Assembly (NCBI GenBank): GCA_029858565.1
Contig: JAOUEV010000058.1
Span: 1-19,759, forward strand
DNA length: 19,759 nt
Reading direction: 5' to 3'
From: Nitrospirota bacterium
GTDB taxonomy: Bacteria; Nitrospirota; UBA9217
Part shown: piece by piece, positions 4,000 to 19,679 of the stretch
Layout of the letters: each line of letters opens with the position of its first letter
Position numbering within the stretch: position 1 is the first letter of the stretch
Program-made: the position numbers and the translations under genes
The notes under the pieces: model-generated
Seen by the model: the letters and a program-made list of their open reading frames with translations, nothing else
Databases searched by the model: none
What the model was told of the DNA's origin: nothing

Positions 4000-4230
4000 A
4001 TGATCTGTCCATTCCAGGATCCGGCGAGCAGATCACTTTGTTTGGTACTGCGGATCGCAGGCGATGTTCCGCCGTTGTGCACGAAGGAGCTGTCCGACAG
4101 CGACAGGGACCGTGAATACCGCCGCTGCGGCTATTATGGAACAGCGATCCTCGGCGGTCTGGAGAGGATCCTTCAGCTCGCCCGCAGGGACCGTGACCGC
4201 GGCGATCCGGAGCGGGAGGCGGCGGCATGA
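4000..4230 (+). CDS. Small four-Cys protein (MxCPF family, paralog 1)
   Basis: GGGAG before ATG; C3-x10-C14...C27...YRRCGYY; its stop overlaps the cheD start (ATGA); Cys register shared with the ORFs at 5165 and 5386. Confidence 0.7.
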   Translation: MICPFQDPASRSLCLVLRIAGDVPPLCTKELSDSDRDREYRRCGYYGTAILGGLERILQLARRDRDRGDPEREAAA

Positions 4231-4751
4231 CAGCCCGGTCCTGCACACAGCCGACGATCTACCTCAAAATGGGCGAGATGGCTTTTGCTGATCAGCCTTC
4301 GACCATTACGACGGTCCTGGGGTCCTGCGTGGCGGTCACGCTCTTCGACAGCAGACAGGGACACAGCGCCATGTGCCACGGAGTGATGCCGTTCTGCGCG
4401 TCGGCCGGCGTGTGCGCGAGCGAGTGTCCGCGCCAGGGGTACTACGTGGAATGTTCGGTTCTCGCCATGGTAAACCGGTTCAGGTCCTCCGGCTTGCGAA
4501 CCGAGGACATCGAAGCGCGGGTGTTCGGCGGCGCCCAGCTGTTCACGACGCCGAGCCGTCTCCGGAGCCTGCTCGCCGTCGGTCCGCAGAACATAGAGGC
4601 TGCGAGGCGCGCATTGAAGCGCATCGGGATCGCGGTGAACTCGATGATCGTCGGAGGCAGGACAGGGTGCAGGGTCAACTTTAACACGATGTCCGGCGCG
4701 GTGTCCGTGCAGCGGCTCGATTCCGTTTTCAGCGCAGACGGCAGGAATTAA
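4227..4751 (+). CDS. cheD: Chemoreceptor glutamine deamidase CheD
   Basis: IYLKMGE, TTVLGSCVAVTLFD (catalytic Cys), AMCHGVMP (His), ARVFGGAQ, VGPQNIEAAR and VGGRTG motifs. Confidence 0.93.
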   Translation: MTARSCTQPTIYLKMGEMAFADQPSTITTVLGSCVAVTLFDSRQGHSAMCHGVMPFCASAGVCASECPRQGYYVECSVLAMVNRFRSSGLRTEDIEARVFGGAQLFTTPSRLRSLLAVGPQNIEAARRALKRIGIAVNSMIVGGRTGCRVNFNTMSGAVSVQRLDSVFSADGRN

Positions 4752-4784
4752 TGCAGCGATGCGGGCAGGGGAGAGGATACTGCC

Positions 4785-5126
4785 ATGATGTATCTCGTCG
4801 TGAAGAACTCCGGCCAGGCAGGCGAGCTCAGGCTCCAGGGAACGCTTGTGGGGGGGGAAGTAGAGGAACTGAAGCTGTATCTGTGCCAGGCCATGCGCTA
4901 CGTCACCGATCTCACCATCGACTGCTCGGCTGTCACTGCGGTTGACGCGGCATGTTTGCAGCTTTTGTGCTCGGCCTACCGCTTGTCCCGGCAACAGCTC
5001 AGGAAATTCACGCCCATAGGCCATTCCCGGGAGGTCTTTCTGCAGGCGGCGCATAACGCGAACTACGCGCACTGCGTAGGCTGCGGACTGGATGGCGAAC
5101 GGGGATGCGTGTGGGGCGTCTGTTGA
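4785..5126 (+). CDS. STAS domain (anti-sigma antagonist-like) protein with Cys-rich tail
   Basis: LRLQGTL...IDCSAVTAVDAACLQLLCSAYR is a STAS pattern; tail HCVGCGLDGERGCVWGVC; RBS GGAGAGGA. Confidence 0.85.
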   Translation: MMYLVVKNSGQAGELRLQGTLVGGEVEELKLYLCQAMRYVTDLTIDCSAVTAVDAACLQLLCSAYRLSRQQLRKFTPIGHSREVFLQAAHNANYAHCVGCGLDGERGCVWGVC

Positions 5127-5164
5127 AGGCGCAGGAATCATCATGCTTGAGGAGGAACAGGTCC

Positions 5165-5365
5165 ATGCACTGCCGATTTGTCAAATCCGGGAACGGCATC
5201 ATCTGCACCGCGGTCAGCGCGCACTATCTGCCGAGCGATTTTGAGAAGCAGGAGTATTGCCTGGCCGACCGGCACCGTATGTGCCCGTTTTACTGCATGA
5301 TCAGGACCGACGGCGCATTTGATCTGAGCGGAATGGAGCTGCAATCACGCACGGCGGTCTGTTGA
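5165..5365 (+). CDS. Small four-Cys protein (paralog 2)
   Basis: GAGGAGG before ATG 5165; MHCRF-x8-C-x-A-x4-YLPSDFEKQEYC-x7-CPFY. Confidence 0.8.
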   Translation: MHCRFVKSGNGIICTAVSAHYLPSDFEKQEYCLADRHRMCPFYCMIRTDGAFDLSGMELQSRTAVC

Positions 5366-5385
5366 CGACAAAAAAGGAGGGGGCC

Positions 5386-5619
5386 ATGACCTGTCCGTTT
5401 GCCGCTGGAAAATACATGCTGTCCTGCGATGCATCGCGGATCTCGTACGTCCCGAGCGACGAGGAAAGCAGCGAGTACTGCACCGACGGAAAGCATGAAC
5501 GGTACCGGCTTTGCGCCAATTACCGGTACGCCGTATGGAACGGCCTGACGCCTGTGCCGTTGCCGGAACCGCGACAGCGTCCTGACAGCGGCTGCCAGAG
5601 GAAACGGGAAATATTGTGA
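5386..5619 (+). CDS. Small four-Cys protein (paralog 3)
   Basis: AAGGAGG before ATG 5386; MTCPF-x8-C-x-A-x4-YVPSDEESSEYC-x10-CANY, colinear with paralog 2. Confidence 0.8.
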   Translation: MTCPFAAGKYMLSCDASRISYVPSDEESSEYCTDGKHERYRLCANYRYAVWNGLTPVPLPEPRQRPDSGCQRKREIL

Positions 5620-5681
5620 ACGAGGGAGTCCGGAAAGACGACGGCGCGGCCGCTCCTGAACCGATCGACGGGGAGCGGATC

Positions 5682-6074
5682 ATGAAGACCGTCATCATCG
5701 TCGATCCTGATTACGCGATAAACGACATCGGGGGGATGATCAGCGGTCAGGGATTCATGGCTCTCGTCATGACGGAAGCCCGCACCGCGCTGAACAGCCT
5801 GCGGAATGAGATGCCCGTGGACCTGGTCATCACGGAGTTGCTGCTGCCGGACATGGATGGCATGGAATTCCTCCGGGCGATCAAGATGAAGGCGCCAAAC
5901 CTTCCGGTCCTCATCGTCACGATGGAACATTCGATCGAAAGCTATTTGCAGGCGATGAGCGCCGGCGCTTTCGATTATCTGCACAAACCGGCGCGGTTCG
6001 CCGACCTCTGTCAATGCGCCCGGTATGCCGTCAATCGACCCGGTCCCGGGCCGGTTTTCGTCCGGGCAGCATAA
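5682..6074 (+). CDS. Single-domain response regulator, atypical (phosphoacceptor Asp replaced by Glu)
   Basis: GGGGAG before ATG 5682; MKTVIIVDP...VDLVITELLLPDMDG...VLIVT...GAFDYLHKP; paralogous to 2982-3377. Confidence 0.88.
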   Translation: MKTVIIVDPDYAINDIGGMISGQGFMALVMTEARTALNSLRNEMPVDLVITELLLPDMDGMEFLRAIKMKAPNLPVLIVTMEHSIESYLQAMSAGAFDYLHKPARFADLCQCARYAVNRPGPGPVFVRAA

Positions 6075-6123: not shown

Positions 6124-9100
6124 ATGGTTCAGGGGGGGATCGTGTCACAGAACAGCCACTCCATCCTCTTTCTGGGAGGCGAATCCGGAGAGGCCGGGAC
6201 AGTCCGGGATGCGCTGCGGGAACTCGCGGAGCAGTTCGAATTATCCGTTGTCCCGGATATCGCCGACGCCCTGCATGCGATAGAATCCGGGCAGTTCGAT
6301 ATCGTGTTCCTCGATGTAAGCGGCATGAATGGCGGGCTCCGGGAAGTCATCACCCGGATCAAAAGCCGGGGCTGCGAATCGCCGTCCGTGATCGCCCTTG
6401 CGGTGCGGGACCGTCCCGAGGGTGATTCGCTTCTCCTGTCCGGCGCCTGCGATTACCTGCTTGCGGGCCGGGGCGATCCGGCTTCGCTTCTCGGCGCCGT
6501 CCGCTCCGTCATTGAACGGCGAAAGCTCACGAAAGCGCTCGCGTTCAGCAATGAACGCTATTCCCGCCTGCTCGGCTCCGTTACGGATTATACCTACTCC
6601 GTGGTCATCAGGGACAACCGGCCGGTCACTTCCTCCCACAGCCCCGGCTGCGCCGCGGTCACGGGATATACGGTCGATGAGTACCATGCAGATCCTCATC
6701 TCTGGTTTCGCATGATCCACCATTCCGACCGTCAGGCGGTCCTCCACATGGTTTCTCAGGTGCTGTGCGGCGGAAATCCCGCTCCCTTGGAGCACCGTAT
6801 CATTCATAAAACAGGCGATATCCGCTGGATCAGGAACACGCCCATGCCCCGCTACGACCAGCAGGGCATCCTCATTGCCTACGACGGGCTGGTGACCGAT
6901 ATCACCGCCCGCAAGCGGGCAGAAGAGGCGCTTCTTGAAAGCGAAACGCGGTACCGGACGCTCGTGGACACGACACCGGACACCATCTTCCTTGTGGACC
7001 GGGACCTCCGGTTTCTTTTTGTGAACAATGCCGGATCCCGCATGATCGGGAAGCAATCCGATGAGTTGACCGGCAAGAAGCATGGGGACGTCTTCCCACC
7101 GGACGTCGCCCGGAAGCAGGAGGTTCTGATCCAGCGGGTGTTTTCCACCGGTGCGCCGCTGGAGACCGACATCAGGCATTGCGTGGGATCGCGGGAGGTA
7201 TGGAACTTCGCGCGCCTCGTGCCGATGTTCGACGACGGCGGTTCGGTTTCCACGGTGCTCGGCGTGGTCATGGACATCACTGACCGGAAGCTCGCGGAAG
7301 AGGCGCTTCGTCAGAGCGAACAACTGCTCCAGCGGGAGTTCCTGAACGTTCAGCGGGCCAAGCAGGAATGGGAGATCACCTTCGACACGATCTCCGATCC
7401 CATTTTCATCCATGACAAGAACTGCCGGATCATCAGGGCGAACAAGGCCTATCAGGAGGTGGCCGGCATACCCTTTCAGGATATCATCGGGAAACCCTTT
7501 CCCGAGATCTTCCCGAATATCGACAACACCGTGGATGTCGAGGGGGGCGACGTGATCAGGCTTGACGCAAGACAGCCCAACTATTATGTCGAGGAACTGG
7601 CCATGCCGTCGCTCTCCCGCGTATTCAGGGGAAAGACCTATCCCATTTATGATGATGCAGGCGAACTTCTTCATTGCGTCCAGGTGCTCGAGGATATCAC
7701 TGAAACGAAACGGGCCGAGGACGCGATGAAGCAGGAAATGGAGATCTCCGCGAACCTGCTGATGCTCGCCGAGGCTGCGACGGACAGCCTGGATCCCGGC
7801 AAACTGATGGAGTGGATGACCGTGTACTGCCGGAAAGTCCTGAACGCCGGTTTCCTGCTCTCCTATCTGTGGGACGGAGCAACGAACAGCTACCGCCCGG
7901 AGCGGCAGCAGGGTCTATCGTCCGTGGTGACGCCCCTGTTCAAGACCGAGCCGCTCGACCCGCGGCGGGACGGCGTTGCTCCCCTGGTTGCCGCAAAACG
8001 GCCTGTTGTTTTGGCGGCCCTTGCGGAGCAGCCGGATGCAGGCCGGTCCCGGCGATTCACGGTTGTCCCGGTCGAGACCGGCGCGACTGCCGCCGCCGAG
8101 ACGGTCGTCGAGGCTCCGTTCGACTGGATGAGCCGTCATGCCATGTGTATCGTCATTCCGCTGGTGGGAAAGGCAGCTCCCCTGGGCCTGCTGGTGGCGG
8201 GGTTTGACGACCATCGGATATTGAGCGATCGCGACCGGAAACTCATCGGCGGCATCGCCCGACAGGCGTCGCTCGCGCTCGACGAAGCGTCGCTCTACCA
8301 CACCGCCATGGAACGGTCCATGGCGCTGGCCCATAAAGTGGAAATACTCAAAGTGATCCATGAGATCGATATGAACATCCTGTCGAGCCTCGAACCGAAG
8401 GAGGTTGTCGAAACAGCGCTGCAGAACATCACCAAGGTCATCCCGTGCGACCGGGCAGAGGCAATGATACTCGACGTCGAACAGCATTTGCTGGTCCGTT
8501 ACCCGGGCAGCGGCGGCAGTGAAACCGGCGGACGCATCCTGTCGATTTCCGATACCAGCGCTTCGGAAGTGCTGGCATCCTGCCGCACGCGCTACGATCC
8601 GGATATCGGGGCCGACGACGGGCTTCGGAAGGAGGAGGCCGGTCTGCTGATGGACGGTTTCCGGTCCCTGCTTCGCACGCCGCTCATCGTAAAGGGAAGC
8701 GCCGCGGGATTCGTAAGCCTTGCGAGCAGGCGGCGGGCGGCCTTCACGTTCGAGGACCTCGGATCCCTGGAGCAGCTGGCCGGATTGATCGGCATTGCTT
8801 TTGAGAACATTCGCCTGGTAACGGACATGCAGGAGCTGTTTTTCGGAACGGTAAAATCCCTCTCCAGCGCGATCGACGCAAAGTCCTCCTGGACCGCCGG
8901 TCATTCCGAACGGGTCACACGATATGCGCTCATGCTGGGACAGGAAACGGGCATGAACGGGCCTGAGCTCCGGTCCCTCGAAATGGCGGCGCTGCTGCAT
9001 GATGTGGGGAAGCTGGGGACCTACGACATGATACTGGACAAAGAATGCAGTCTTACCGCTGATGAGTACGAGATCATCAAGCGACATCCTGTGCGGGGAG

Positions 9101-9414
9101 CGGAGCTCCTGAAGCCCATCAAGCAGATGAGGCATATCCTGCCCGCGGTCCTGCATCACCACGAGCGCTATGACGGGTCGGGATATCCTGACGGTCTCAA
9201 GGGATCGGATATACCCGGTCTGGCACGGGTACTGGCCGTTGCGGATGCCTTCGACTCCATGACGGCATGGCGGCCCTATCGCAGGACGTTTACGTGCCAG
9301 GAAGCGATCGCAGAGCTGCGGCGCTGCGCAGGGACCCAGTTCGATCCCGTGCTCGTGGAGGCATTCATCGCCAGCTTGCAGAAACTCGACCAGGATCCGG
9401 CGCGCGCAGCATGA
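6124..9414 (+). CDS. HD-GYP cyclic dinucleotide phosphodiesterase (degenerate REC, 3 PAS/PAC, 2 GAF, HD-GYP)
   Basis: Three PAS/PAC ends (DITARKRAE, DITDRKLAE, DITETKRAE); two GAF-like segments (IPLVGK...LGLL, TPLIVKG...GFVSL); GHSERV, HDVGK, HHERYDGSGYPDGL, ADAFDSM, RPYR and GTQFDP motifs. Start could alternatively be GTG 6142. Confidence 0.93.
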   Translation: MVQGGIVSQNSHSILFLGGESGEAGTVRDALRELAEQFELSVVPDIADALHAIESGQFDIVFLDVSGMNGGLREVITRIKSRGCESPSVIALAVRDRPEGDSLLLSGACDYLLAGRGDPASLLGAVRSVIERRKLTKALAFSNERYSRLLGSVTDYTYSVVIRDNRPVTSSHSPGCAAVTGYTVDEYHADPHLWFRMIHHSDRQAVLHMVSQVLCGGNPAPLEHRIIHKTGDIRWIRNTPMPRYDQQGILIAYDGLVTDITARKRAEEALLESETRYRTLVDTTPDTIFLVDRDLRFLFVNNAGSRMIGKQSDELTGKKHGDVFPPDVARKQEVLIQRVFSTGAPLETDIRHCVGSREVWNFARLVPMFDDGGSVSTVLGVVMDITDRKLAEEALRQSEQLLQREFLNVQRAKQEWEITFDTISDPIFIHDKNCRIIRANKAYQEVAGIPFQDIIGKPFPEIFPNIDNTVDVEGGDVIRLDARQPNYYVEELAMPSLSRVFRGKTYPIYDDAGELLHCVQVLEDITETKRAEDAMKQEMEISANLLMLAEAATDSLDPGKLMEWMTVYCRKVLNAGFLLSYLWDGATNSYRPERQQGLSSVVTPLFKTEPLDPRRDGVAPLVAAKRPVVLAALAEQPDAGRSRRFTVVPVETGATAAAETVVEAPFDWMSRHAMCIVIPLVGKAAPLGLLVAGFDDHRILSDRDRKLIGGIARQASLALDEASLYHTAMERSMALAHKVEILKVIHEIDMNILSSLEPKEVVETALQNITKVIPCDRAEAMILDVEQHLLVRYPGSGGSETGGRILSISDTSASEVLASCRTRYDPDIGADDGLRKEEAGLLMDGFRSLLRTPLIVKGSAAGFVSLASRRRAAFTFEDLGSLEQLAGLIGIAFENIRLVTDMQELFFGTVKSLSSAIDAKSSWTAGHSERVTRYALMLGQETGMNGPELRSLEMAALLHDVGKLGTYDMILDKECSLTADEYEIIKRHPVRGAELLKPIKQMRHILPAVLHHHERYDGSGYPDGLKGSDIPGLARVLAVADAFDSMTAWRPYRRTFTCQEAIAELRRCAGTQFDPVLVEAFIASLQKLDQDPARAA

Positions 9415-9531
9415 ATTGCCGCGGATGTCGTCACGGACGCCGTTTCCCGCATGTTCACGCGCAAGGTCCCGCTGCTTGTCAATCCGCCTGCCAGGCCTGT
9501 TCATCTCCTCCCCGGAGTGCGCCGGCCGAAA

Positions 9532-9586
9532 TTTACCGCATCTTAACACCCATTAACGCCACATTTACGCCTTCCGGGGGTATCGT
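9532..9586 (+). promoter_or_regulatory. Four TT(A/T)AC direct repeats plus putative -10 box (TATCGT)
   Basis: TTTAC 9532, TTAAC 9543, TTAAC 9553, TTTAC 9564, then TATCGT 9581; same layout as 12690-12743. Confidence 0.7.
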
Positions 9587-9632
9587 TGAAGCAAGAAAAG
9601 CACATGATGTCGGACGTGTAAAGGAGCAGGTC

Positions 9633-10439
9633 ATGAGATATTTGGGTATCGCTCTTCTCGCAGGCTTCCTGGTGTTCGCCGGATCGCCTACCGTATCCGG
9701 CCAGACCGGGATCAAGAAAAAACGATCTTCTGCCCAGGACTATGGAAAGGTCGTCATCAATACGGCGAACTCGGAACGCTACGGACTGGGGCCGGTGCAG
9801 TTCGACCACTGGCTCCACAGGACCAAGACCACCTGTCGTGTCTGTCATGTGGACATCGGATTCGCCATGAAGGCGGGCGGGACCGGCATCCGTGCCGAGG
9901 ATAACATGGCGGGCTACTATTGCGGTTCCTGCCATAATGGAAAGCCTTTTCAGGGGAAGGTCGTGTTCGAGTCCTGCTCCCGGGAGTTCAGGACCGGCGA
10001 ATTGAAACGTTGCGAACGATGTCATTCGCTGGGGAAACAGGTAAAGCTCGAAAATTCGTTCGCTGCCGTCACCGGCGACCTTCCGAAGGAGCGGTATGGG
10101 AACGGGATCGACTGGGTGAAGGCGGAATCAGCCGGGGCGGTGAAGCCGGTAAGGCATCTCGAGGGAGTGTCGCCGAGGGCCTCGTCCTTGCCGGTGCAAA
10201 AAGACTTTTTGCTCAATCCGAAAGTGGCCGGCATGCCGGAGATCATTTTTTCCCACCAGAAGCACACGGCATGGAACGGTTGTCAGGTGTGCCATCCCGA
10301 GATATTCATCGGCGTGAAGAAGGGCACCACCAAATATTCAATGGTCGAGATATTCGACGGGAAGTTCTGCGGCGTGTGCCACGGGAAGGTCGCATTCCCA
10401 CTTATGGATTGTGAACGATGCCATACTCAACCCGTATAA
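9633..10439 (+). CDS. Periplasmic hexaheme cytochrome c (two c7-type triheme domains)
   Basis: AAGGAG before ATG 9633; Sec-type signal peptide; six CxxCH (CRVCH, CGSCH, CERCH, CQVCH, CGVCH, CERCH); F-x-H-x-x-H before each triad. Confidence 0.92.
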   Translation: MRYLGIALLAGFLVFAGSPTVSGQTGIKKKRSSAQDYGKVVINTANSERYGLGPVQFDHWLHRTKTTCRVCHVDIGFAMKAGGTGIRAEDNMAGYYCGSCHNGKPFQGKVVFESCSREFRTGELKRCERCHSLGKQVKLENSFAAVTGDLPKERYGNGIDWVKAESAGAVKPVRHLEGVSPRASSLPVQKDFLLNPKVAGMPEIIFSHQKHTAWNGCQVCHPEIFIGVKKGTTKYSMVEIFDGKFCGVCHGKVAFPLMDCERCHTQPV

Positions 10440-11212
10440 TAAGGTATGTGCTGATCCTGGCGGCCGGCCTGGCGGCTCCCTGTCTTGCGGAAGCCCAGGG
10501 CGGCGCGTCGCGTCTGGAATTTCCTGAAGCGAAACCGCCGGAGATCTACGGCACGATCCTCATCGACCGGACGTCGACCCTGAAGGGGGTGAAGCCGGTG
10601 ATCTTTTCGCACTGGCTCCATCGCCGTACGCACACCTGCCGGGTCTGTCATTTTGAACTTGAGTTCAACATGAAGGCAAACTCGACCGAGATCACGGAAA
10701 ACGAGAACCGTTCCGGGAAGTACTGCGGCGCTTGTCATGACGGCAGGGAACACGACGGCAAGGTCCTGTTCGGACATGAGAACAGCGCGGATTGCGGGAA
10801 GTGTCATACCGGCGACCTAACTGCGGGAAGCGGGAGATACAAGGAACTCGCCAGGCTGCCCCGGTCCTCGTCCGGCAACAAGGTGAACTGGTCCAAGGCG
10901 CTTGAAAAAGGAATGATCACGCCGCAGCATGAGCTGCACATCAAGGCCGCTGATATGAATTACGACAAAAGCATCAAGCTGGAGGCCGAATGGTGGAATA
11001 TCCCGCCGGCCCTGTTCCCGCATGACCGTCACATCAAATGGCTCGACTGCAACAACTGCCATCCTGATATTTTCAATATTAAGAAAAAGACGACCAAGCA
11101 CTTTCTTATGACACGCATCCTGTCCGGGGAATTCTGCGGTGTCTGTCACATGACCGTCGCGTTCCCGATCACCGATTGCAGAAAATGCCATCCCGCGATG
11201 AGGGAGCAGTGA
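10418..11212 (+). CDS. Periplasmic hexaheme cytochrome c (two c7-type triheme domains), paralog of the preceding gene
   Basis: Signal peptide; six CxxCH (CRVCH, CGACH, CGKCH, CNNCH, CGVCH, CRKCH); shares HWLHR..TCRVCH, GN..[DN]W.KA and FCGVCH..VAFP with the upstream gene. Confidence 0.92.
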   Translation: MPYSTRIIRYVLILAAGLAAPCLAEAQGGASRLEFPEAKPPEIYGTILIDRTSTLKGVKPVIFSHWLHRRTHTCRVCHFELEFNMKANSTEITENENRSGKYCGACHDGREHDGKVLFGHENSADCGKCHTGDLTAGSGRYKELARLPRSSSGNKVNWSKALEKGMITPQHELHIKAADMNYDKSIKLEAEWWNIPPALFPHDRHIKWLDCNNCHPDIFNIKKKTTKHFLMTRILSGEFCGVCHMTVAFPITDCRKCHPAMREQ

Positions 11213-11215
11213 AAC

Positions 11216-11656
11216 ATGCACGCACTGAATCCTGACAGCGGACGGACTGCCGTGCCGACAGCGTCCTGCGCGATCATGCTCCTGATACGCGCCACGACGA
11301 TTGCCGTGTTCCTGCTCTCGTCCCCGGCGGCCGCGCGGCAGAACGGAACGATCGATATCGGCGCCGGAGAAAAAGACTGGCGGACGGAATTCGACGACAT
11401 CTGTTCGCTTGTAGACACTGCAATGGAGATGAGCCCCGCGGAGTTGGAAGAGCTCCTTTTTCGCTGCCAGGCGCTGGAACCAAGGATCGAAAAGCTTCCT
11501 GAAACACCGAAAAAGGTATTTGGCCGCAAGCTCCGGATGTGCAGGGATCTCTATCGATTCGTACTTGACAACAAGTACGGAAAAAACAGCGCAGACGGCA
11601 GCGGCGCTGGGGTTCACGGTGAGGCCGGAACAAAGGGAAAGGCTGTGGGTAAATGA
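11216..11656 (+). CDS. Hypothetical exported helical protein
   Basis: Fills the gap between cytochrome genes; hydrophobic signal-like stretch ending SPAAA; amphipathic core WRTEFDDIC...RC...MCRDLYRFVL. Start uncertain (ATG 11277 possible). Confidence 0.7.
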   Translation: MHALNPDSGRTAVPTASCAIMLLIRATTIAVFLLSSPAAARQNGTIDIGAGEKDWRTEFDDICSLVDTAMEMSPAELEELLFRCQALEPRIEKLPETPKKVFGRKLRMCRDLYRFVLDNKYGKNSADGSGAGVHGEAGTKGKAVGK

Positions 11657-12621
11657 GCATGAAAGGAAAGAAGGCCTTGCGAAGGTTCTTCAGCGCCGCT
11701 GCCGCGGCGTGCTTCCTGATGATCCACCTGGCCGCATCCGCAGAGCAGGCCGATCTGGCGGTCTTGCACCCCAGGGATCGGTCGCTAGCCGGAGCCACGA
11801 TCAGCGTGGTGCTGAATCCGGCAGCGGAGAAATTGCCGGGGCCGTTCTTTCAGTTGACCATCGGCGGCGAACGCGGTCCGGTTGTAAATGCGGAAACGAT
11901 GCCGCACGCGGTACGGAACGTCGGACTCCATCCGGGTGAGAATAGGATCGTTGTGACGTTCTTTAAACAGCAGGCGTTCTTTGGGAAGCTCAGGAAGATC
12001 GCTTCGCAGGAGTTGACCGTATTCAGCGGAAAATACCCCTCTGGGGAGGCAGCGGTCCCGCCGCATTTCAGCAGAAGGACGTTCCACCAGGACGGCTGCG
12101 GAACGGCATGCCTGCAGTGCCACGGCATCGGACACCTGGCAGCGGACGGTTCGCTTATCAGTTCGCCGGGGAAGGCCTGTCTTTCCTGTCATTCCTTTGT
12201 CACGTCCCGACGGCATGTGCACAGTCCGGTCGCGGCTTCCTCCTGTACTGCCTGTCATGATGTCGATGGAAAACGGCAGGTCGTCGTGACTGCTTCGCTT
12301 GGAGCCATCCCAAGGCAGCGGGAGCAGAACGCCTTGTGCGGACGATGCCATGAAAGAACGCTTTCGAACCAATTCACCCATGGGCCGGTAGCAGCGGGCT
12401 TGTGCATCCATTGTCATGACCCTCATTCCGGAACCCATGCCGCACAGCTCAGAAAACCGGCGAGCGAGCTTTGCATGGAGTGCCATGAAGCGCGTTCGTT
12501 GCAAACCTGCGCTGCCAGGACCACAAGCGCGTCAGGTGGCGCAGTTGAATGCACGATGTGCCACGATCCGCACGGTTCAAGCAACAGCAGACTGCTTTTA
12601 ACAAAGGTCGTCATACGCTGA
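11653..12621 (+). CDS. Multiheme cytochrome c (seven CxxCH, paired-CxxCH type) with N-terminal non-heme domain
   Basis: Signal-like N-terminus; CLQCH, CLSCH, CTACH, CGRCH, CIHCH, CMECH, CTMCH; H-x-PV...CxxCHDPH repeat units. Confidence 0.9.
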   Translation: MSMKGKKALRRFFSAAAAACFLMIHLAASAEQADLAVLHPRDRSLAGATISVVLNPAAEKLPGPFFQLTIGGERGPVVNAETMPHAVRNVGLHPGENRIVVTFFKQQAFFGKLRKIASQELTVFSGKYPSGEAAVPPHFSRRTFHQDGCGTACLQCHGIGHLAADGSLISSPGKACLSCHSFVTSRRHVHSPVAASSCTACHDVDGKRQVVVTASLGAIPRQREQNALCGRCHERTLSNQFTHGPVAAGLCIHCHDPHSGTHAAQLRKPASELCMECHEARSLQTCAARTTSASGGAVECTMCHDPHGSSNSRLLLTKVVIR

Positions 12622-12689
12622 CCAATATGATCGCAGAGTTCAGCGAGGACAGCTCGGGACCACCGGCTGTTGTTGCAGGTGACAAGAGC

Positions 12690-12743
12690 TTAACCGGAAT
12701 TAACAGCCATTAACAGCAAATTTACCCGCCAACGCAGTATAGT
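12690..12743 (+). promoter_or_regulatory. Four TT(A/T)AC direct repeats plus putative -10 box (TATAGT)
   Basis: TTAAC 12690, 12700, 12710, TTTAC 12721, then TATAGT 12738; same layout as 9532-9586. Confidence 0.7.
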
Positions 12744-12907
12744 TTTGCTATAGTTACACTCATCAAATATTCCGGGCATGACGATTTGAGCAGCATGAGC
12801 ACAAGATATCCAAAACGTTCAGAATCATGCGATTCTTGAAATAGCAGCTAAAGTATGATGGTCAGCTTATCAGTCACGATCGAGCAAATCACGACCTAAG
12901 GAGGCAG

Positions 12908-14599
12908 ATGATGATGAAAAAAGTTCTGGTTGCAAGCATTCTTGTACTGGCGGTTGCTTTCATGTTCGGCATGTATACCGGCAATGCGGATGCACAGTAC
13001 AAGGCTGCTCCAGCGGCTAAGGCCGCGGAGAAGGATGTGAATGTGAGCACCTGCTACGGGTGCCACGATCCGATCAAGGAGCTGCACACCATGGGCAAGC
13101 ACGGGAAGGTGAACTGTGCGAAGTGCCATAGCGGCCTGCAGAAGCACATGGCCAGCCCCGGACCGGACACCCGTCCGGTTACCAATACGGCCTGGGAGGC
13201 CTGCGGCCAGTGCCACAAGGACCAGTTCGAGAGCTTCAATCAGATCGCCATGCACCGGCCGGCGCGGGACGAGAAGTCCCAGCTCACGAACCGTTCGCCT
13301 AATCCTTTCTGGGAGAAGCTGATGGCCGGCCACGGATTCACCAAGGAGCACAACCTCACCCGCAGCCACGTCGCCATGCTGACGGACCACCTGATCGTGG
13401 ACCGCGCCTACGGCGGCCGGTTCCAGGCAAAGGACGGCTGGAACTATATTTTTGAAAAAGGCAAAGCCTGGGACATCCTGACGGACACCCATCATGAGAC
13501 CAAGGAGCACAAGGCTTTCATTCCCCAGAGCGCTGCTGCTGCCAACCCGGTCTGCCTCCAGTGCAAATCCCAGGACCAGATCCTGAAGTGGTCTTATATG
13601 GGAGACAAAGTGGAAGGCAAGACCACCTGGGACCGCACATCGAACGTTGTTGAGTTCGTGAAAGACCTGAACCACGGCCTGAACTGTTTCACCTGCCACG
13701 ATCCCCATGCTGCAAAGCCCCGTATCGTGCGCGACGGCCTGATCCAGGCGCTCACCCGGCCCGAGGCGGACACGCTCTGGCACAAGGACCCCAAGCACAC
13801 GAACATCAAGGTCATCGATATGGGACTCCGGGGATTCACCCGCAAGATAGCGATCCTGGACAAGTACGACACCCGGCTCCAGTGCGGCCAGTGCCACGTG
13901 GAGTACAACTGCAATCCCGGCACGGACACCAAGACCGGCGAAAAGGTCACGATGGCTGACCAGCGGACGAATCACTTCCCCTACAAGGACGTGTTCGGCC
14001 TCTACGAGCATTACAAGAACCAGATCAATTTCCTCGACTTCAAGCACGCGATCACCGGCGGCCTGCTCTGGAAGGCCCAGCATCCCGAGGCGGAGAGCTT
14101 CTACAACTCCAAGCATGCCAAGGCCGGCGCTGGCTGCGACTCCTGTCATTCGCCCAAGATGAAGAACAAGCAGGGCAAGACCTTCACCTCGCACTTCGTG
14201 GTGACCCCGAAGGCCGTGCTGAAGCAGACCTGCCTCACCTCAAAGTGCCATCCCAAGTGGAACGAGGAACAGGCGAAATACGCCATCGATTCCATCAAGG
14301 CGCACATCAGGGGCAAGATGCGCAAGGCCGAGTTCCGCATCTCCGTGCTGATCGACAAGATCGTGGCTGCGAAGGCGGCGGGCGTGGATCCTGAAGTGAT
14401 CAAGCAGGCCCAGGACCAGCACCTGAAGGCGCACATCCTCTGGGAGTACTGGACCGCTGAGAATTCCGACGGCTTCCACAACCCCGAGATGGCCAAGGAA
14501 GCTATGACCAAGTCTGCTGATGAGGCGTTCAAGGGCATCAAGATCATCGATGATGCCATGGCAGCCAAGACCGCATCGGCTGCCCCGGCTGGCAAATAA
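12908..14599 (+). CDS. nrfA: Ammonia-forming cytochrome c nitrite reductase, octaheme (ONR/TvNiR-type) form of the NrfA family
   Basis: AAGGAGG RBS; signal peptide; three N-terminal CxxCH, active-site CLQCK (13553-13567), three further CxxCH and one CX4CH; catalytic-type motifs TRSH, CHVEYNCNPG, KAQHPE and AENSDGFHNP. Confidence 0.93.
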   Translation: MMMKKVLVASILVLAVAFMFGMYTGNADAQYKAAPAAKAAEKDVNVSTCYGCHDPIKELHTMGKHGKVNCAKCHSGLQKHMASPGPDTRPVTNTAWEACGQCHKDQFESFNQIAMHRPARDEKSQLTNRSPNPFWEKLMAGHGFTKEHNLTRSHVAMLTDHLIVDRAYGGRFQAKDGWNYIFEKGKAWDILTDTHHETKEHKAFIPQSAAAANPVCLQCKSQDQILKWSYMGDKVEGKTTWDRTSNVVEFVKDLNHGLNCFTCHDPHAAKPRIVRDGLIQALTRPEADTLWHKDPKHTNIKVIDMGLRGFTRKIAILDKYDTRLQCGQCHVEYNCNPGTDTKTGEKVTMADQRTNHFPYKDVFGLYEHYKNQINFLDFKHAITGGLLWKAQHPEAESFYNSKHAKAGAGCDSCHSPKMKNKQGKTFTSHFVVTPKAVLKQTCLTSKCHPKWNEEQAKYAIDSIKAHIRGKMRKAEFRISVLIDKIVAAKAAGVDPEVIKQAQDQHLKAHILWEYWTAENSDGFHNPEMAKEAMTKSADEAFKGIKIIDDAMAAKTASAAPAGK

Positions 14600-14614
14600 C
14601 GGAAGATACATTCA

Positions 14615-14690: not shown

Positions 14691-15071
14691 ATGAAACGGT
14701 TTGTATTGGTGCTTCTGATGCTCGTTCTCCCGATCTCCGCGTACTCTGCCGGCAAGACCCACATGAAGACCGACGGCCAGGACTGTGTCGAATGCCACGG
14801 CAACCAGGAGCAGGTGTGGCTGGACGGCAAGCACGGGCTCATGAACGTCAAATGCGTGGTGTGCCACGGAAATCCCGAACAGAATTTCGCACCCAAGCCC
14901 GGATTGAGCCGCTGCCGCGGCTGTCATGCCGAGAAGGTCGCTGATGTGGAAAAGAAACTATCCGCAAAGGAGCGCACCTGTTTCCTTTGCCATGACAACC
15001 ACCGGGTCACCGTGAAGGACACGGCCAAGGTCAAGAGCGGATTCCATCAGGAAGGAGGAGCGCCGAAATGA
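14691..15071 (+). CDS. napM: Small periplasmic tetraheme cytochrome c, NapM-like
   Basis: AAGGAGG before ATG 14691; signal peptide; CVECH, CVVCH, CRGCH, CFLCH; ATGA overlap with napA, the position napM holds in Desulfovibrio napCMADGH. The symbol rests on heme count and synteny. Confidence 0.75.
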   Translation: MKRFVLVLLMLVLPISAYSAGKTHMKTDGQDCVECHGNQEQVWLDGKHGLMNVKCVVCHGNPEQNFAPKPGLSRCRGCHAEKVADVEKKLSAKERTCFLCHDNHRVTVKDTAKVKSGFHQEGGAPK

Positions 15072-17380
15072 AGATGACCAGAAGACAGCTCCTGAAATAT
15101 TCGGCGGCCGTAGCGGCCGCGTCGGCGATCGGACTTGATATCGCGCTGCCCAAGGAACTTATGGGCGCCGAAGCCGATGTCGAGAAGTGGGTCAAAGGCG
15201 TTTGCCGTTATTGCGGCGCCGGATGCGGTGTCTATGCAGGCGTGAAAGGCGGAAAGGTCGTCGCGGTCAAAGGCGACAAGGACAACTGGAATAAGGGATT
15301 TCTCTGCCTCAAGGGCAACTTCCTGCCTGCGATCATGACCTCCCCGGACCGGGCGAAGTATCCCTTGCTCCGGAAAGGGAACGATTTCGTCAAGATCTCC
15401 TGGAAAGAGGCCATGGATCTCATGGTCGATAAGTTCGCTGCGGCCTACACTGCCGATCCCCAGTCCGTGGCGTTCTACGGGTCCGGTCAGGCTTATACCG
15501 AAGAGTCCTACTTCATGAACAAGGTGTTCAAGGGCGGCCTCGGCACGAACAATATCGACGGCAATCCCCGTCTCTGCATGGCTTCCGCGGCCGTGGGCTA
15601 TGTGTCGACCTTCGGCAAGGACGAGCCCATGGGCGCCTATGACGACATGTACCATGCCGACTGTTTCTTCATTGTCGGCTCGAACATGGCCGAGGCCCAT
15701 CCCGTGATCTTCCGCATCGTGAACGAGCAGAAGAAACGGGGGGCCAAGATTATCATGGTCGATCCCCGGAAGACCCTGTCCGCGAAGATCGCCGACCTGC
15801 ACATGAGCTTTACGCCGGGCACCGACCTGGCGATATTGAACGCCATGGCCCATGTGATCGTGAAGGAAAACCTCTACAGCAAGGAGTACGTGGAGAAGTA
15901 CACGGTCTTCAAGACCATGACCGATCCCGGTCCGCCGCCGAAGATCGAGAAGACGGACTGGAACGGTTATGTGAAGTTCCTGGAGGACTACTCTCCCGAG
16001 GCTGCGGAGAAGATCTCCGGCTGTCCCAAGGAGGACATCATCAAGGCCGCGCATCTGTTCGTCAAGTCCAAGGCGACCATGAGCTTCTGGTGCATGGGCC
16101 TGAACCAGCGCACCCGCGGCGTCTGGGTGAACAATATGATGCACAACCTCCATTTGCTCACCGGCCAGATCAACCGGCCCGGGGCAACGTCGTTCTCGCT
16201 CACCGGCCAGCCCAATGCCTGCGGCGGCGTGCGCGACGGCGGCCTTCTGAGCCATCTGCTGCCCTACGGCAGGCTGATCGCGAACGAGAAAGACCGCGAG
16301 GACATGGAGAAATTCTGGGGAGTTCCGGCGGGCCGGATCCAGCCCAAGCCCGGACCCACAGCGGTTGAGATGTTCCGGGACTTCGGCACAGGCAAGATCA
16401 AGGCAATGTGGATCGCCTGCACCAACCCCGGCCAGAGCCTGCCGAATGTGGACGCCTACCGGAAGGGCATGGAGTCGAACAATACCTTCCTGGTGGTTTC
16501 CGAGGCTTACCACCCGACCAAGACATCCGAACTGGCGGATCTGGTGCTGCCTGCAGCGCTCTGGGTCGAGAAGGACGGCACCTACGGCCAGTCCGAGCGG
16601 CGGTATCAGTACGTGGAGAAGGCGATCAATCCGCCGGCCGAGGCCCGTCCGGACCTGGACGTGATGATCGAGTTCGCGAACAAACTGTTCAAGAAGCTCG
16701 ATCTGGAACATGAGGCCAAAAAGCTATTCGCGTACAAGAACTCAGAGGATGTGTGGAACGAGATCCGGCTCTGCTCAAAGGGCACTGCCTACGATTTCAT
16801 GGGCATGACACGTGCGCGCATGAAAAAGGCCCACGGCATCCAGTGGCCCTGCCCCACGGAAGACCATCCGGGCACGCTGCGCCGCTACACGGCAAAGCAC
16901 GGCGATCCGCTGGTCAAGAAGTTCGATCCCAAGGCCGAAGACGTCTCCTTCTACGGCGCCAAAGGGGACGGCAACCGGGCCACGATCTGGCTCCGGCCCC
17001 ACAAGGGACCGGCAGAGCCGCCGGACGCGGAATATCCCTTTGCGCTCACCACGGGCCGCCAGATCGAGCACTGGCATACCGGCACCATGACGCTCAAGGT
17101 TCCGGAGCTGAAGCGGTCCGCGCCGACGGCCTACGTGGAGATCAACCCCCGCGACGCGGCGAAGCTGGGCGTCAAGTCCAAGGACAAGGTAAAGATCACC
17201 TCCCGGCGCGGTTCCATCGTGCTCGAGGCCAAGGTCATGGACGTGCCGCGCGACGGGCTGGTGTTCGTACCCATGCATTATCCTGACAAGATGATCAACA
17301 GTCTCACGAACGACGCCTTCGACGCCTTGTCCAAACAGCCGGAGTACAAGATCTGCGCGGTCAAGCTCGAAAAGGCCTGA
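15068..17380 (+). CDS. napA: Periplasmic nitrate reductase catalytic subunit
   Basis: Tat leader MTRRQLLK; [4Fe-4S] motif CRYCGAGC...CLKG; NPRLCMASA (Mo-ligating Cys); SLTGQPNACG; LTTGR...HWHTGTMT; SKQPEYKICAV. Confidence 0.96.
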   Translation: MKMTRRQLLKYSAAVAAASAIGLDIALPKELMGAEADVEKWVKGVCRYCGAGCGVYAGVKGGKVVAVKGDKDNWNKGFLCLKGNFLPAIMTSPDRAKYPLLRKGNDFVKISWKEAMDLMVDKFAAAYTADPQSVAFYGSGQAYTEESYFMNKVFKGGLGTNNIDGNPRLCMASAAVGYVSTFGKDEPMGAYDDMYHADCFFIVGSNMAEAHPVIFRIVNEQKKRGAKIIMVDPRKTLSAKIADLHMSFTPGTDLAILNAMAHVIVKENLYSKEYVEKYTVFKTMTDPGPPPKIEKTDWNGYVKFLEDYSPEAAEKISGCPKEDIIKAAHLFVKSKATMSFWCMGLNQRTRGVWVNNMMHNLHLLTGQINRPGATSFSLTGQPNACGGVRDGGLLSHLLPYGRLIANEKDREDMEKFWGVPAGRIQPKPGPTAVEMFRDFGTGKIKAMWIACTNPGQSLPNVDAYRKGMESNNTFLVVSEAYHPTKTSELADLVLPAALWVEKDGTYGQSERRYQYVEKAINPPAEARPDLDVMIEFANKLFKKLDLEHEAKKLFAYKNSEDVWNEIRLCSKGTAYDFMGMTRARMKKAHGIQWPCPTEDHPGTLRRYTAKHGDPLVKKFDPKAEDVSFYGAKGDGNRATIWLRPHKGPAEPPDAEYPFALTTGRQIEHWHTGTMTLKVPELKRSAPTAYVEINPRDAAKLGVKSKDKVKITSRRGSIVLEAKVMDVPRDGLVFVPMHYPDKMINSLTNDAFDALSKQPEYKICAVKLEKA

Positions 17381-17501: not shown

Positions 17502-17729
17502 ATGCCCGTTACGAGCGTCGTCGTAGAGGTTATAGAAGGAGTGAACGAAGACCTCCTCGGCCGCATCGCGCGCATACCGCGCGTCAACGTGTTCGGGATG
17601 AAGGGACAGCAGATCGTTACGGTGATCGAGGGGGACAACGTCCGGGACGTCGAGGACGTTGTCAGGACGATCCTGGAGATCGAGGGCGTCATCGGGGTCT
17701 ACCCCGTCTACTCAGGCGATTATGAATAG
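17502..17729 (+). CDS. napD: NapA-specific chaperone NapD
   Basis: GGAGG before ATG 17502; MPVTSVVV...QIVTVIEG...IEGVIGVYPVY matches the NapD pattern; directly follows napA. Confidence 0.88.
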   Translation: MPVTSVVVEVIEGVNEDLLGRIARIPRVNVFGMKGQQIVTVIEGDNVRDVEDVVRTILEIEGVIGVYPVYSGDYE

Positions 17730-18201
17730 CAAGCCGCTCAGGCCGCCGGGCGCGATTGCCGAGACAGATTTCCTGGCAACCTGCATCCGCTGCGGAAAAT
17801 GCGCACAGATCTGCCCCTACGGTTCCATCAGGACCGCGGGGTTCCTTGACGGCCCGGTGATGATGGGAACGCCGGTGATCGTTCCGCGAAGCAAGCCTTG
17901 CTATCTTTGCATGAAATGCCCGCCGGTCTGCCCGTCCGGAGCGCTTCGGCGCGAGATGAAACGGAAAGAGGATGTCCGGATGGGCATCGCGAAGATCGAC
18001 GACAAGGAGTGCCTTGCCTGGCAGGGGACTCTCTGCCGCAGCTGCTATGACGACTGCCCGCTCTTCGGCGAGGCGATCGTCATGGACAAGGAGCTGCGGC
18101 CGGTCGTCGATGAGAAGAAGTGCGTCGGCTGCGGCATCTGCGAGAACGTCTGTCCGGTGGAGGAACCGACCATCAAGGTCAGGCCGGGAGGACGAACGTG
18201 A
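17722..18201 (+). CDS. napG: Ferredoxin-type protein NapG (MauM/NapG family), no Tat leader
   Basis: LRPPGA...F..TCIRCGKC..ICP followed by three more four-Cys groups; MGIAKID...CLAW motif. Confidence 0.87.
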   Translation: MNSKPLRPPGAIAETDFLATCIRCGKCAQICPYGSIRTAGFLDGPVMMGTPVIVPRSKPCYLCMKCPPVCPSGALRREMKRKEDVRMGIAKIDDKECLAWQGTLCRSCYDDCPLFGEAIVMDKELRPVVDEKKCVGCGICENVCPVEEPTIKVRPGGRT

Positions 18202-18992
18202 CCATCCGTCGGGCCCGCAGGGCCGTCCAGATCCTGACGCTCGGCATGATCGTGCTCATCCCGATCCTGAACAGGGCCGAGATCACCTTCCTGTCGGGAA
18301 CGTTCTATTCCCTCGCCATCGGGCCGGTCTGGATCACCGATCCCATTATCGGGTTCCAGACGATGCTGACCTCGCTCAGGATCGACAAGGCATTGCTGCT
18401 GTCGATGGTCATCCCGCTGGCGGCCGCCGCGGTGCTCGGAAGGGTCTTCTGCAGCTGGATGTGCCCGCAGAACACCCTTTCCGAGTGGGTTGACCATCTT
18501 GCCGACCGGCTGAGCAGCAAGAGGATGTTCACGTTCCGGACACCCCGCCATGTGCGGACCGCGGTGACCGCAGCCGTGGTCCTGGCGGCGCCGCTGGCCG
18601 GTTTTCCCCTTGCCAGCCTGCTCTCGGCGCCGGGCATCATTTCCGCCCAGACCGCGCGGTTGATCAAGGAAGGAGCGGTCGGCGCCGAGGTCATCCTGAT
18701 CGCGGTGATCCTCATCGCCGAGCTGTTCGTGGCGAGGCGTGTCTGGTGCTCGACGCTCTGTCCCGTGGGCGGGTTCCTGGCGCTGTTCCGGTTCCGTCGA
18801 ACGATGCGGGTGGCGCTCGTGGAGGACGCGCAGCATCACTGCGGCCGCTGCCATGCCTGCGACGAAGCCTGCCAGCTGGGCCTCGCTCCGATGGCCGGGG
18901 ACATCCAGCCGGTCTGCCACAACTGCGGCGATTGCATCGATACCTGCGCACGGCTGCAGCACGGTGCGCGGCCGCTGGTCTTCAAACGCTAG
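18198..18992 (+). CDS. napH: Membrane ferredoxin-type protein NapH (MauN/NapH family)
   Basis: GTG start overlapping the napG stop (GTGA) after GGGAGGA; hydrophobic helices; GRVFCSWMCP and WCSTLCPVG motifs; two CxxCxxCxxxC motifs. Confidence 0.9.
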   Translation: MTIRRARRAVQILTLGMIVLIPILNRAEITFLSGTFYSLAIGPVWITDPIIGFQTMLTSLRIDKALLLSMVIPLAAAAVLGRVFCSWMCPQNTLSEWVDHLADRLSSKRMFTFRTPRHVRTAVTAAVVLAAPLAGFPLASLLSAPGIISAQTARLIKEGAVGAEVILIAVILIAELFVARRVWCSTLCPVGGFLALFRFRRTMRVALVEDAQHHCGRCHACDEACQLGLAPMAGDIQPVCHNCGDCIDTCARLQHGARPLVFKR

Positions 18993-19013
18993 TCCGCTGA
19001 AGAGGGGGTGCGC

Positions 19014-19679
19014 ATGGAGGATCGGACGACTGCCGTCCCGGCGGTCAAACAGGGATTCGAACAGGTCCTCGCGGAATCCGCCCGGACCCACGGTCATCTC
19101 TGCCCGGGGCAGGTGCTGGGGGTGCGGATGTCCCTGCTCGGACTGCGGGAGATCGGCATCGAGGACCCGAAGGGGCGGGACCGGAAGAACATCATCGTGT
19201 TCGTCGAGATGGACCGGTGCGCCACCGACGCCGTGCAGTCCGTGACCGGGTGCACGCTCGGCCACCGGACCATGAAGTTCCTGGACTTCGGAAAGATGGC
19301 GGCGACCTACGTCAATCTCAGGACCGGCAGGGCCGTGCGCATTGTTGCCCGTGACGATTCGCGGGAGCGGGCGCGGGAGCTGTTCCTGGGGATCGGCGAC
19401 AAGCACCGGGCGCAGCTTGAGGCGTACAAGATCATGTCCGATACGGAGCTGTTCATCACCCGGGAGGTGAGGGTCGAACTCCGGCCCGAGGATCTGCCGG
19501 GGCGGCCTCTGCGCCGCGTGCCCTGCGAGGCCTGCGGGGAGCAGGTCCAGGACCTGCGCGAAGTGGTCCGCGACGGCTCCGTCCTGTGCAGGGCATGCGC
19601 CGGGCAATCCTACTACACCACGGCCGGGAGTCCGGACGAAGAGCCGCTCCAGGCACCGGGAGGCGTCCATGTGCGATAG
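19014..19679 (+). CDS. FmdE family protein with C-terminal zinc finger
   Basis: HGHLCPGQVLGVRM, VEMDRCATDAVQ..TGCTLG, DFGKMAAT, and CEACGE...CRAC finger. Confidence 0.9.
   Translation: MEDRTTAVPAVKQGFEQVLAESARTHGHLCPGQVLGVRMSLLGLREIGIEDPKGRDRKNIIVFVEMDRCATDAVQSVTGCTLGHRTMKFLDFGKMAATYVNLRTGRAVRIVARDDSRERARELFLGIGDKHRAQLEAYKIMSDTELFITREVRVELRPEDLPGRPLRRVPCEACGEQVQDLREVVRDGSVLCRACAGQSYYTTAGSPDEEPLQAPGGVHVR

What the first reader, a model, noticed from the sequence alone, without database searches (positions are those of the whole stretch)
9532..12743. Shared four-repeat TT(A/T)AC promoter architecture links the multiheme cluster to the nitrite/nitrate reductase operon
Seen: 9532 TTTACcgcatcTTAACacccaTTAACgccacaTTTAC-12nt-TATCGT and 12690 TTAACcggaaTTAACagccaTTAACagcaaaTTTAC-12nt-TATAGT. 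Repeat periods are 11/10/11 and 10/10/11, the cores TTAACACCCATTAAC and TTAACAGCCATTAAC match at 14/15, and the distance to a -10-like hexamer is identical, with no canonical -35. Established: helically phased direct repeats replacing -35 typify OmpR/PhoB-family activators (Bacillus PhoP binds TT(A/T/C)ACA repeats). Inference: one regulator, not encoded in this window, co-activates both operons, which differs from NarL/NarP, FNR or sigma-54 control.
Basis: partly seen in the sequence, partly recalled or inferred. Interest (0 to 1): 0.75.

Follow-up and report, generated by a model that had tools for sequence, protein, structure and literature searches.

The report
Heme-sensor switch for nitrate ammonification
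Two promoters here carry the same four short DNA repeats, a pattern that recurs before nitrate- and nitrite-respiration genes in many related bacteria and travels with one heme-motif sensor kinase and its partner regulator, which likely binds the repeats to switch these genes on, probably on sensing nitric oxide.

Summary
The likely regulator lies on another contig: an OmpR-family response regulator behind a kinase with a c-heme Cache (Tll0287/sCache_heme) sensor. In 401 genomes of the phylum, 41 have both array and regulator, 5 the array only, 11 the regulator only. The pair often sits beside the octaheme nitrite reductase-nap genes, and the link recurs more weakly in a second phylum. The layout matches the Firmicute Pho box, but this genome's PhoB-like regulators and pstS promoters are distinct. 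The multiheme-cluster link is not conserved: 0 of 27 homologous clusters carry the array, so it looks like a recruit in this lineage. Binding, activation and the signal (NO most likely) are untested. My 10 paper searches found no description of this system. The scan noted the same array earlier in another Nitrospirota genome (e1-2886607).

The parts
9532..9568 (+). Array 1: four TT(A/T)AC repeats, periods 11/10/11; likely two head-to-tail regulator dimer sites
   Evidence: PWM 46.1 bits
9581..9586 (+). -10-like hexamer 12 nt after the last repeat; start site predicted near 9593
   Evidence: position conserved in relatives
9633..10439 (+). c7-type hexaheme cytochrome A (6 CxxCH)
   Evidence: PF14522, TIGR04257 over cut-off, motif count
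10418..11212 (+). c7-type hexaheme cytochrome B (6 CxxCH)
11216..11656 (+). 146-aa protein of no known family; nearest Atlas clusters unnamed, score below 0.9
11653..12621 (+). paired-CxxCH multiheme cytochrome (7 CxxCH)
   Evidence: PF09699
12690..12725 (+). Array 2: four repeats, periods 10/10/11; first repeat one base off the usual register
   Evidence: PWM 52.1 bits; orthologous arrays
12738..12743 (+). -10-like hexamer 12 nt after the last repeat; start site predicted near 12750
12746..12754 (+). second TATAGT preceded by TG-n; possible extended -10 basal promoter
   Evidence: sequence; untested
12908..14599 (+). octaheme cytochrome c nitrite reductase (ONR): 6 CxxCH, 1 CxxCK, 1 CX4CH-like site
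   Evidence: PDB 8rv0/2zo5, E about 1e-153
14691..15071 (+). tetraheme cytochrome, NapM-like by heme count and position
   Evidence: napMADGH order in PMC5276818 passage
15068..17380 (+). periplasmic nitrate reductase NapA-like (Tat signal; below NCBIfam NapA cut-offs)
17502..17729 (+). NapD
   Evidence: PF03927 over cut-off
17722..18201 (+). NapG-like ferredoxin
18198..18992 (+). NapH-like membrane ferredoxin
19008..19679 (+). FmdE-family protein, also behind napH in G240 and G215

Best explanation
The two arrays are likely operator sites of one OmpR-family response regulator (G000:C142:60576-61247), which is encoded behind a sensor kinase with a c-heme-motif Cache domain and would activate the octaheme nitrite reductase-napMADGH genes, and in this genome the multiheme cluster too, most likely when the heme binds nitric oxide. 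Steps: (1) Shown: arrays, gene content, domain architecture, co-occurrence and synteny. (2) Inferred: the periplasmic sCache_heme domain binds NO made from nitrite or by neighbours and signals through HAMP to the kinase, which phosphorylates Asp53 of the regulator. (3) Inferred from OmpR/PhoB precedent (recalled): two head-to-tail dimers occupy repeats 1+2 and 3+4 (11-bp period in a pair, 21 bp between pairs) at about -61 to -25; the proximal dimer covers the missing -35 and recruits sigma-70 polymerase at the -10 hexamer. (4) Inferred: the third site induces a heme-sensor HD-domain protein, probably a cyclic-dinucleotide phosphodiesterase. Odds: regulator binds the array 0.85; it activates 0.8; the 9532 site is functional here 0.7; signal is NO 0.5, nitrite or heme redox state 0.4.
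For: Regulator = PF00072+PF00486; kinase = PF11845+HAMP+HisKA+HATPase; CxxCH in 120 of 120 listed kinase homologs. Of 16 ONR loci examined independently of the motif, 5 carry the array; kinase-regulator genes flank the ONR-nap operon in G009, G006, G036. In 41 relatives: array in 5, regulator in 4, all 4 within the 5. In 401 phylum genomes: array 46, regulator 52, both 41, neither 344; backwards-read control 9 hits in 8 genomes against 72 real hits. Of 33 array loci from other genomes, 29 precede ONR, nap, NrfH-like or octaheme HAO-like genes. -10 positions outside the search pattern read T 84%, A 93%, T 96% in 32 sites. A PWM from other genomes scores only three G000 sites (52, 46, 43 bits; next 15.7; control 13.0). 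Second phylum: regulator 35 of 401, array 21 of 401, both 11; 13 of 21 array loci have the kinase or a regulator of at least 50% identity within 1.5 kb. The 22 regulators form one clade (SH-aLRT 100, quick tree) with an invariant DVHxxH core in the recognition helix, also seen in a Bacillus PhoP-like protein. A signalling sCache_heme protein binds NO with slow off-rate and forms no stable oxy complex (bioRxiv 10.64898/2026.02.01.703092, parts 1-4 of 6 read).
Against: No binding, start-site or expression data. 0 of 27 scored c7-cluster homologs have the array, including 4 regulator-bearing genomes; 0 of 122 metagenome array loci hit c7A/B, though 52 are under 2 kb. Five genomes have the array but no regulator: G010 and G212 are fragmented or incomplete, G099 is likely chance, G343 keeps only a broken kinase remnant, G353 (99% complete) is unexplained. 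Three regulator-bearing genomes of one genus keep only two good repeats. In the second phylum 24 of 35 regulator genomes lack the strict array. Kin are not independent, so co-occurrence overstates. The NO data come from a Pseudomonas sensor-HAMP protein, not a kinase of this clade. G000 has about ten sCache_heme domains. PWM scores of the core repeats are partly circular.
Confidence: 0.75

Rival explanations
1. Same regulator and sites, but the kinase heme senses nitrite directly, sulfide, or periplasmic redox state rather than NO.
For: Targets are mostly nitrate and nitrite reductases and their electron-transfer partners; one target is a NIT-domain chemoreceptor (L364). Desulfovibrio NrfS is thought to sense nitrite (PMC5701242 passages).
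Against: The one tested signalling sCache_heme protein behaves as an NO sensor. The kinase sensor has no cysteine beyond CxxCH to serve as a distal ligand. A cytochrome cd1 nitrite reductase, which makes NO, is also a target in G157 (L341).
Confidence: 0.4
2. The arrays are Pho boxes read by one of the genome's PhoB-like regulators, tying these genes to phosphate limitation.
For: The B. subtilis Pho box is four TT(A/T/C)ACA-like repeats at 11-bp period, and the Lc. paracasei pstS box shows the same 11/10/11 layout (PMC11870197 passages). G000 has two PhoB-like regulators.
Against: PhoB-like matches occur in 25 of 41 relatives against 5 with the array. The two pstS-like promoters of G000 carry GTAA(T/C) repeats and no array. 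The PhoB-like proteins have a different helix and fall in another clade.
Confidence: 0.04
3. The 9532 array is a non-functional leftover of a promoter duplication or rearrangement; only the ONR-nap site works.
For: Absent from all 27 scored homologous c7 clusters; the central 15-mer matches the ONR site at 14 of 15; a relic array seems to persist in G343 after kinase decay.
Against: Flanks and the 12-nt spacer have diverged while all four pentamers, the register and the TA..T bases are kept; 46 bits on a PWM from other genomes; the regulator is intact in G000; other genomes also add lineage-specific targets.
Confidence: 0.25
4. The regulator represses these promoters by covering the -35 region and is released by the signal.
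For: The array overlaps the -35 position; a possible extended -10 at 12746-12754 could fire without an activator.
Against: No -35 consensus is present to be blocked; the fixed 12-nt gap to the -10 across many genomes is what a polymerase-contacting activator needs and a repressor does not.
Confidence: 0.1

Closest known systems
B. subtilis PhoP and the Firmicute Pho box (PMC11870197, passages)
   Same: OmpR-family regulator; four TT(A/T)AC(A)-like direct repeats at about 11-bp period; similar recognition helix in a Bacillus PhoP-like protein
   Different: Targets are respiratory nitrogen-oxide reductases, not phosphate genes; the kinase has a periplasmic c-heme Cache domain; the regulator is its own clade
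sCache_heme (DUF3365/Tll0287, PF11845) Cluster 2 signalling proteins (bioRxiv 10.64898/2026.02.01.703092, parts 1-4 of 6 read)
   Same: CxxCH Cache domain fused to HAMP and a signalling output; enriched in Nitrospirota and Desulfobacterota
   Different: The main text has no occurrence of nitrite, nitrate, response regulator or operon; no target genes are given for these kinases. Its datasets (supplements closed) may list this kinase.
NrfS-NrfR of Desulfovibrio (PMC5701242 passages; PMC12285233 section 12)
   Same: A dedicated two-component system thought to coordinate nap and nitrite reductase genes; napMADGH operon type
   Different: NrfR is sigma-54-dependent; this regulator is OmpR-type with sigma-70-like promoters and tandem repeats
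NarXL/NarQP with FNR (E. coli, Shewanella); Nss regulators (Wolinella)
   Same: Activate nap and nrf
   Different: Heptameric inverted repeats and Crp-FNR or NarL-type proteins; none of these sites is in the window (FNR/CRP scan)
ResDE of B. subtilis (PMC8139620 passages; OmpR family membership recalled)
   Same: Two-component control of nitrite reductase genes responsive to O2 and NO
   Different: Different organism group and enzyme set; a ResD-like protein lies outside this clade (L421, identity assigned by neighbours and recall)

Membership tests
OmpR/PhoB-family response regulator (C142 gene) | Receiver domain plus winged-helix Trans_reg_C domain | tested here: met
   PF00072 and PF00486 over cut-off; D53 and K103 invariant in 4 of 4
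OmpR/PhoB-type activated promoter | Tandem direct repeats at 10-11-bp period in place of -35, fixed distance to -10 | tested here: met
OmpR/PhoB-type activated promoter | Phosphorylation-dependent binding and activation | not testable with these tools
   needs EMSA, footprint, reporter
Pho regulon (PhoB/PhoP) | Box present at pstS promoters | tested here: not met
   pstS-like promoters lack the array
Pho regulon (PhoB/PhoP) | Regulator is PhoB/PhoP with a PhoR-type kinase | tested here: not met
   NCBIfam PhoB 197 bits, below 296 cut-off; separate clade; PF11845 sensor
sCache_heme Cluster 2 sensor | PF11845 domain with CxxCH fused to HAMP and an output domain | tested here: met
sCache_heme Cluster 2 sensor | Stable NO binding, exchangeable distal site | not testable with these tools
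   only the lack of a third Cys in the sensor was seen
Octaheme nitrite reductase (TvNiR/TaNiR) | Eight heme motifs with a CxxCK catalytic heme; full-length homology | tested here: met
   6 CxxCH + 1 CxxCK, eighth as CX4CH aligned to a heme motif of 8rv0; E 8.5e-154
NrfS-NrfR (sigma-54) | -24/-12 promoter and enhancer-binding regulator | tested here: not met
   no sigma-54 consensus within 1 mismatch in the window; regulator has no AAA domain
FNR/CRP/HcpR control | TTGAT-N4-ATCAA or TGTGA-N6-TCACA palindrome (FNR motif recalled; HcpR1 motif) | tested here: not met
   none within 1 mismatch in the window
NarXL/NarQP | NarL-type regulator binding inverted heptamers | not tested
   no heptamer scan was run; the arrays are direct repeats

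The most novel reading that the evidence does not exclude
A widespread, undescribed two-component system uses a periplasmic c-heme as an NO sensor to switch on nitrate ammonification (ONR, NrfHA, Nap, octaheme HAO-like enzymes, in one genome also NirS) in Nitrospirota and Thermodesulfobacteriota, through an operator that converged on the Firmicute Pho box; in this genome it also wires in a c7 multiheme electron-supply cluster and a heme-sensor cyclic-dinucleotide phosphodiesterase.
Probability: 0.4. Interest if true: 0.68.

Novelty: new variant of a known kind. Interest (0 to 1): 0.52.

Why it matters
Nitrate ammonification keeps nitrogen in soils, sediments and aquifers. The 2025 review section I read (PMC12285233, section 12) tabulates regulators for four organisms only, none from these phyla. 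This supplies a regulator, kinase, operator and target list for two deep-branching anaerobic phyla, and a first candidate output for the newly defined sCache_heme kinases. Each link can be tested with purified proteins and reporters, without culturing the organism. The array also predicts which uncharacterised octaheme cytochromes and porins serve nitrate respiration.

Tried and rejected
The genome-contig scan with the regulator alignment returned only generic OmpR proteins at 38-46% identity; it served only for outgroups and for a centre in the second phylum. No RNA holder was listed for 9300-14600, so no reads were laid. No Rfam match in the window. No sigma-70 pair or convincing terminator between the clusters (5 terminator-like sites against 4.1 in shuffles), so read-through from 9593 into ONR is open. 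The array pattern in one Bacillus genome gave 2 hits against 9 in the control, uninformative. The Atlas gave no named family for the 146-aa protein. A Fisher test (p 4e-40) is not used as evidence because kin are not independent. Both trees are quick trees without bootstrap. A direct tally of complete -10 hexamers was left out; column frequencies stand in. G389 (regulator only) was not examined further. No structure or complex prediction was run. Ten paper searches showed no description of this system; subscription papers, bioRxiv supplements and Supplementary Table S1 of PMC5701242 (nap clusters and motifs) were not seen and may bear on novelty.
Full report
Observation. The third copy, C82:32750, keeps the same 12-nt gap and precedes a PF11845-HAMP-HD protein. 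A metagenome locus has the array before a similar sensor-HAMP protein (L223).

Genes. Array 1 leads two c7-type hexaheme cytochromes, a 146-aa unknown and a seven-heme paired-CxxCH cytochrome. Array 2 leads an octaheme nitrite reductase (E about 1e-153 to TaNiR/TvNiR structures) and napMADGH plus an FmdE-family gene. Named homologs of the kinase described below are mostly Nitrospirota.

Finding the regulator. I took 16 ONR loci found by protein search and read their upstream DNA without using the motif. Five carry the array (G000, G009, G010, G006, G036); the four from other genomes are all 11/10/11 with a hexamer 12 nt on. In G009 and G006 the gene ending just upstream is an OmpR-family regulator preceded by a kinase; in G036 the same pair lies just downstream of napH. 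The G000 ortholog is on contig C142: regulator PF00072+PF00486, kinase PF11845+HAMP+HisKA+HATPase, with CxxCH in 120 of 120 listed homologs.

Co-occurrence. In 41 relatives the array is in 5 and the regulator in 4 of those 5. In 401 genomes of the phylum the fixed 11/10/11 pattern (one mismatch) is in 46 and the regulator's DNA-binding domain (E at most 1e-22) in 52; 41 have both and 344 neither. The backwards control gave 9 hits against 72. Of the 11 regulator-only genomes I examined 10: G173 and G229 have 11/11/11 arrays before ONR, three genomes of one genus keep two good repeats, and five have matches with 2-3 mismatches of uncertain standing, of which the G261 one precedes an octaheme gene beside the kinase. 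Of the 5 array-only genomes none has a close regulator: two are fragmented or incomplete, one looks like chance, G343 has a broken kinase remnant beside nap, and G353 is unexplained. In the phylum of G401 (Thermodesulfobacteriota by its record) the regulator is in 35 of 401, the array in 21, both in 11, with 9 control hits; 13 of the 21 array loci have the kinase or a close regulator within 1.5 kb. In metagenomes, 56 of 122 exact-match loci (41 of the 70 of at least 2 kb) contain the regulator or ONR/nap genes; many of the rest are simple repeats or short loci. Related genomes are not independent, so these counts overstate significance.

Targets. Of 33 array loci from other genomes, 21 precede ONR, 1 a truncated ONR-like start, 4 napM or napA, 2 NrfH-like genes and 1 an octaheme HAO-like gene; 4 gave no ORF call. 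Further sites lead NapD-like genes, more octaheme proteins, a cytochrome cd1, a NIT-domain chemoreceptor, porins, Rieske proteins and, in G214 and G157, regulatory genes. The conserved core is nitrate ammonification, with lineage-specific additions.

Promoter geometry. In 32 sites from other genomes the -10 positions, which were not in the search pattern, read T 84%, A 93% and T 96%. With the hexamer at -12 to -7 the repeats span about -61 to -25, and the -35 position falls between repeats 3 and 4. Two 11-bp pairs 21 bp apart fit two head-to-tail dimers on one face of the helix. That the proximal dimer recruits sigma-70 is inferred from PhoB precedent (recalled). The PWM finds only the three G000 sites (52.1, 46.1, 43.0 bits; next 15.7; control 13.0), with the caveat that the core columns derive from the same pattern.

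The multiheme cluster. Of 29 homologous c7 clusters fetched (33 of 64 genomes had a match), 27 had enough upstream DNA; none has the array (best fit 4-9 mismatches, random background 5-11), including G009, G204, G215 and G240, which have the regulator. Orthology among these paralog-rich clusters is not established. The 9532 site keeps every pentamer, the register and the -10 bases while its flanks differ from the ONR site, which favours a functional, recently recruited site over a decaying copy. The cluster's likely role, periplasmic electron supply to the reductases, is inference from heme content and position.

Pho rival. The layout equals the Firmicute Pho box (PMC11870197 passages), and a Bacillus PhoP-like protein shares the DVHxxH helix core. 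But PhoB-like proteins occur in 25 of 41 relatives, G000's two pstS-like promoters carry a different repeat, and the 22 regulators form their own clade apart from both (quick tree). The system works like PhoP on its box; it is not a Pho regulon.

Signal. A 2026 preprint defines PF11845 as sCache_heme, enriched in Nitrospirota, and reports that a HAMP-fused member binds NO with a slow off-rate and no stable oxy form (parts 1-4 of 6 read). Its main text never mentions nitrite, nitrate or response regulators. The kinase here has no extra cysteine in the sensor. NO is my first choice (0.5); nitrite or redox sensing is close behind (0.4).

Known systems and novelty. DNRA regulators in the review section read are NarXL/QP, FNR/Crp, NsrR, Nss and NrfSR; NrfSR is sigma-54-dependent. 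Passage searches of two papers on napMADGH or octaheme ammonifiers found no occurrence of two-component, regulator or sensor. Ten searches showed no paper on this system (listings and abstract starts only, unless stated). The scan itself noted the array and a neighbouring OmpR-type regulator in another Nitrospirota genome (e1-2886607), seen after my reading was fixed; it is a repeat, not independent evidence. The parts are known kinds and the combination appears undescribed: a new variant, interest 0.52.

Noticed in passing
L013, L015, L016, L017, L019, L020, L021, L032, L033 (ONR upstream regions): 9 of the 11 ONR loci without the array carry an upstream TATGA-N6-TCATA palindrome, against 0 of 5 with the array; in most it lies about 22 nt before a TT(T/A)AAT hexamer, like a class II Crp/Fnr-family site. 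G009 has one ONR of each type. The two promoter types are not cleanly split on the ONR tree. G000 has 15 exact copies elsewhere, none in the window.
   Followed up: partly
G000:C82:32750 and L001:8903-10393: Third array site, before a sensor-HAMP-HD protein whose heme domain is 49% identical to the kinase sensor: possible coupling to cyclic-dinucleotide turnover.
   Followed up: partly
window 12746-12754: Second TATAGT with an upstream TG-n, a possible extended -10 giving basal ONR transcription.
   Followed up: no
L366:4925-6363 (G343): Kinase remnant with an internal stop, cut off before the heme motif, beside a nap operon that keeps a perfect array: apparent regulator loss with a relic site.
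   Followed up: partly
L397-L400, L415: In the second phylum the array drives, divergently from the kinase, a gene like the Rieske protein of L198: a likely bc-type module in the regulon.
   Followed up: partly
L332, L342 (G214, G349): Three arrays within a few kb before napA, a NapD-like gene and an octaheme HAO-like gene, suggesting that this octaheme replaces ONR.
   Followed up: partly
L335 (G214:C86): A perfect array precedes an RpoD-like sigma factor gene.
   Followed up: no
G000:C126 about 26450-26490 and C2 about 6190-6230: pstS-like promoters carry GTAA(T/C) repeats at 11-bp period, a candidate Pho box for the PhoB-like regulators.
   Followed up: partly
window 536-1455 and 2220-6074: A chemoreceptor-like gene that seems split or truncated (536-1285, 1210-1455), then CheW-, CheD- and STAS-like ORFs and lone receiver domains, read from the translations only.
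   Followed up: no
window 6124-9414: Receiver-PAS-GAF-HD signalling protein ending 118 nt before array 1 (receiver part read by eye).
   Followed up: no
G000, eight further loci (C144, C109, C74, C36, C89, C127): About ten sCache_heme domains in this genome, fused to diguanylate-cyclase-like and kinase outputs by their tails.
   Followed up: partly
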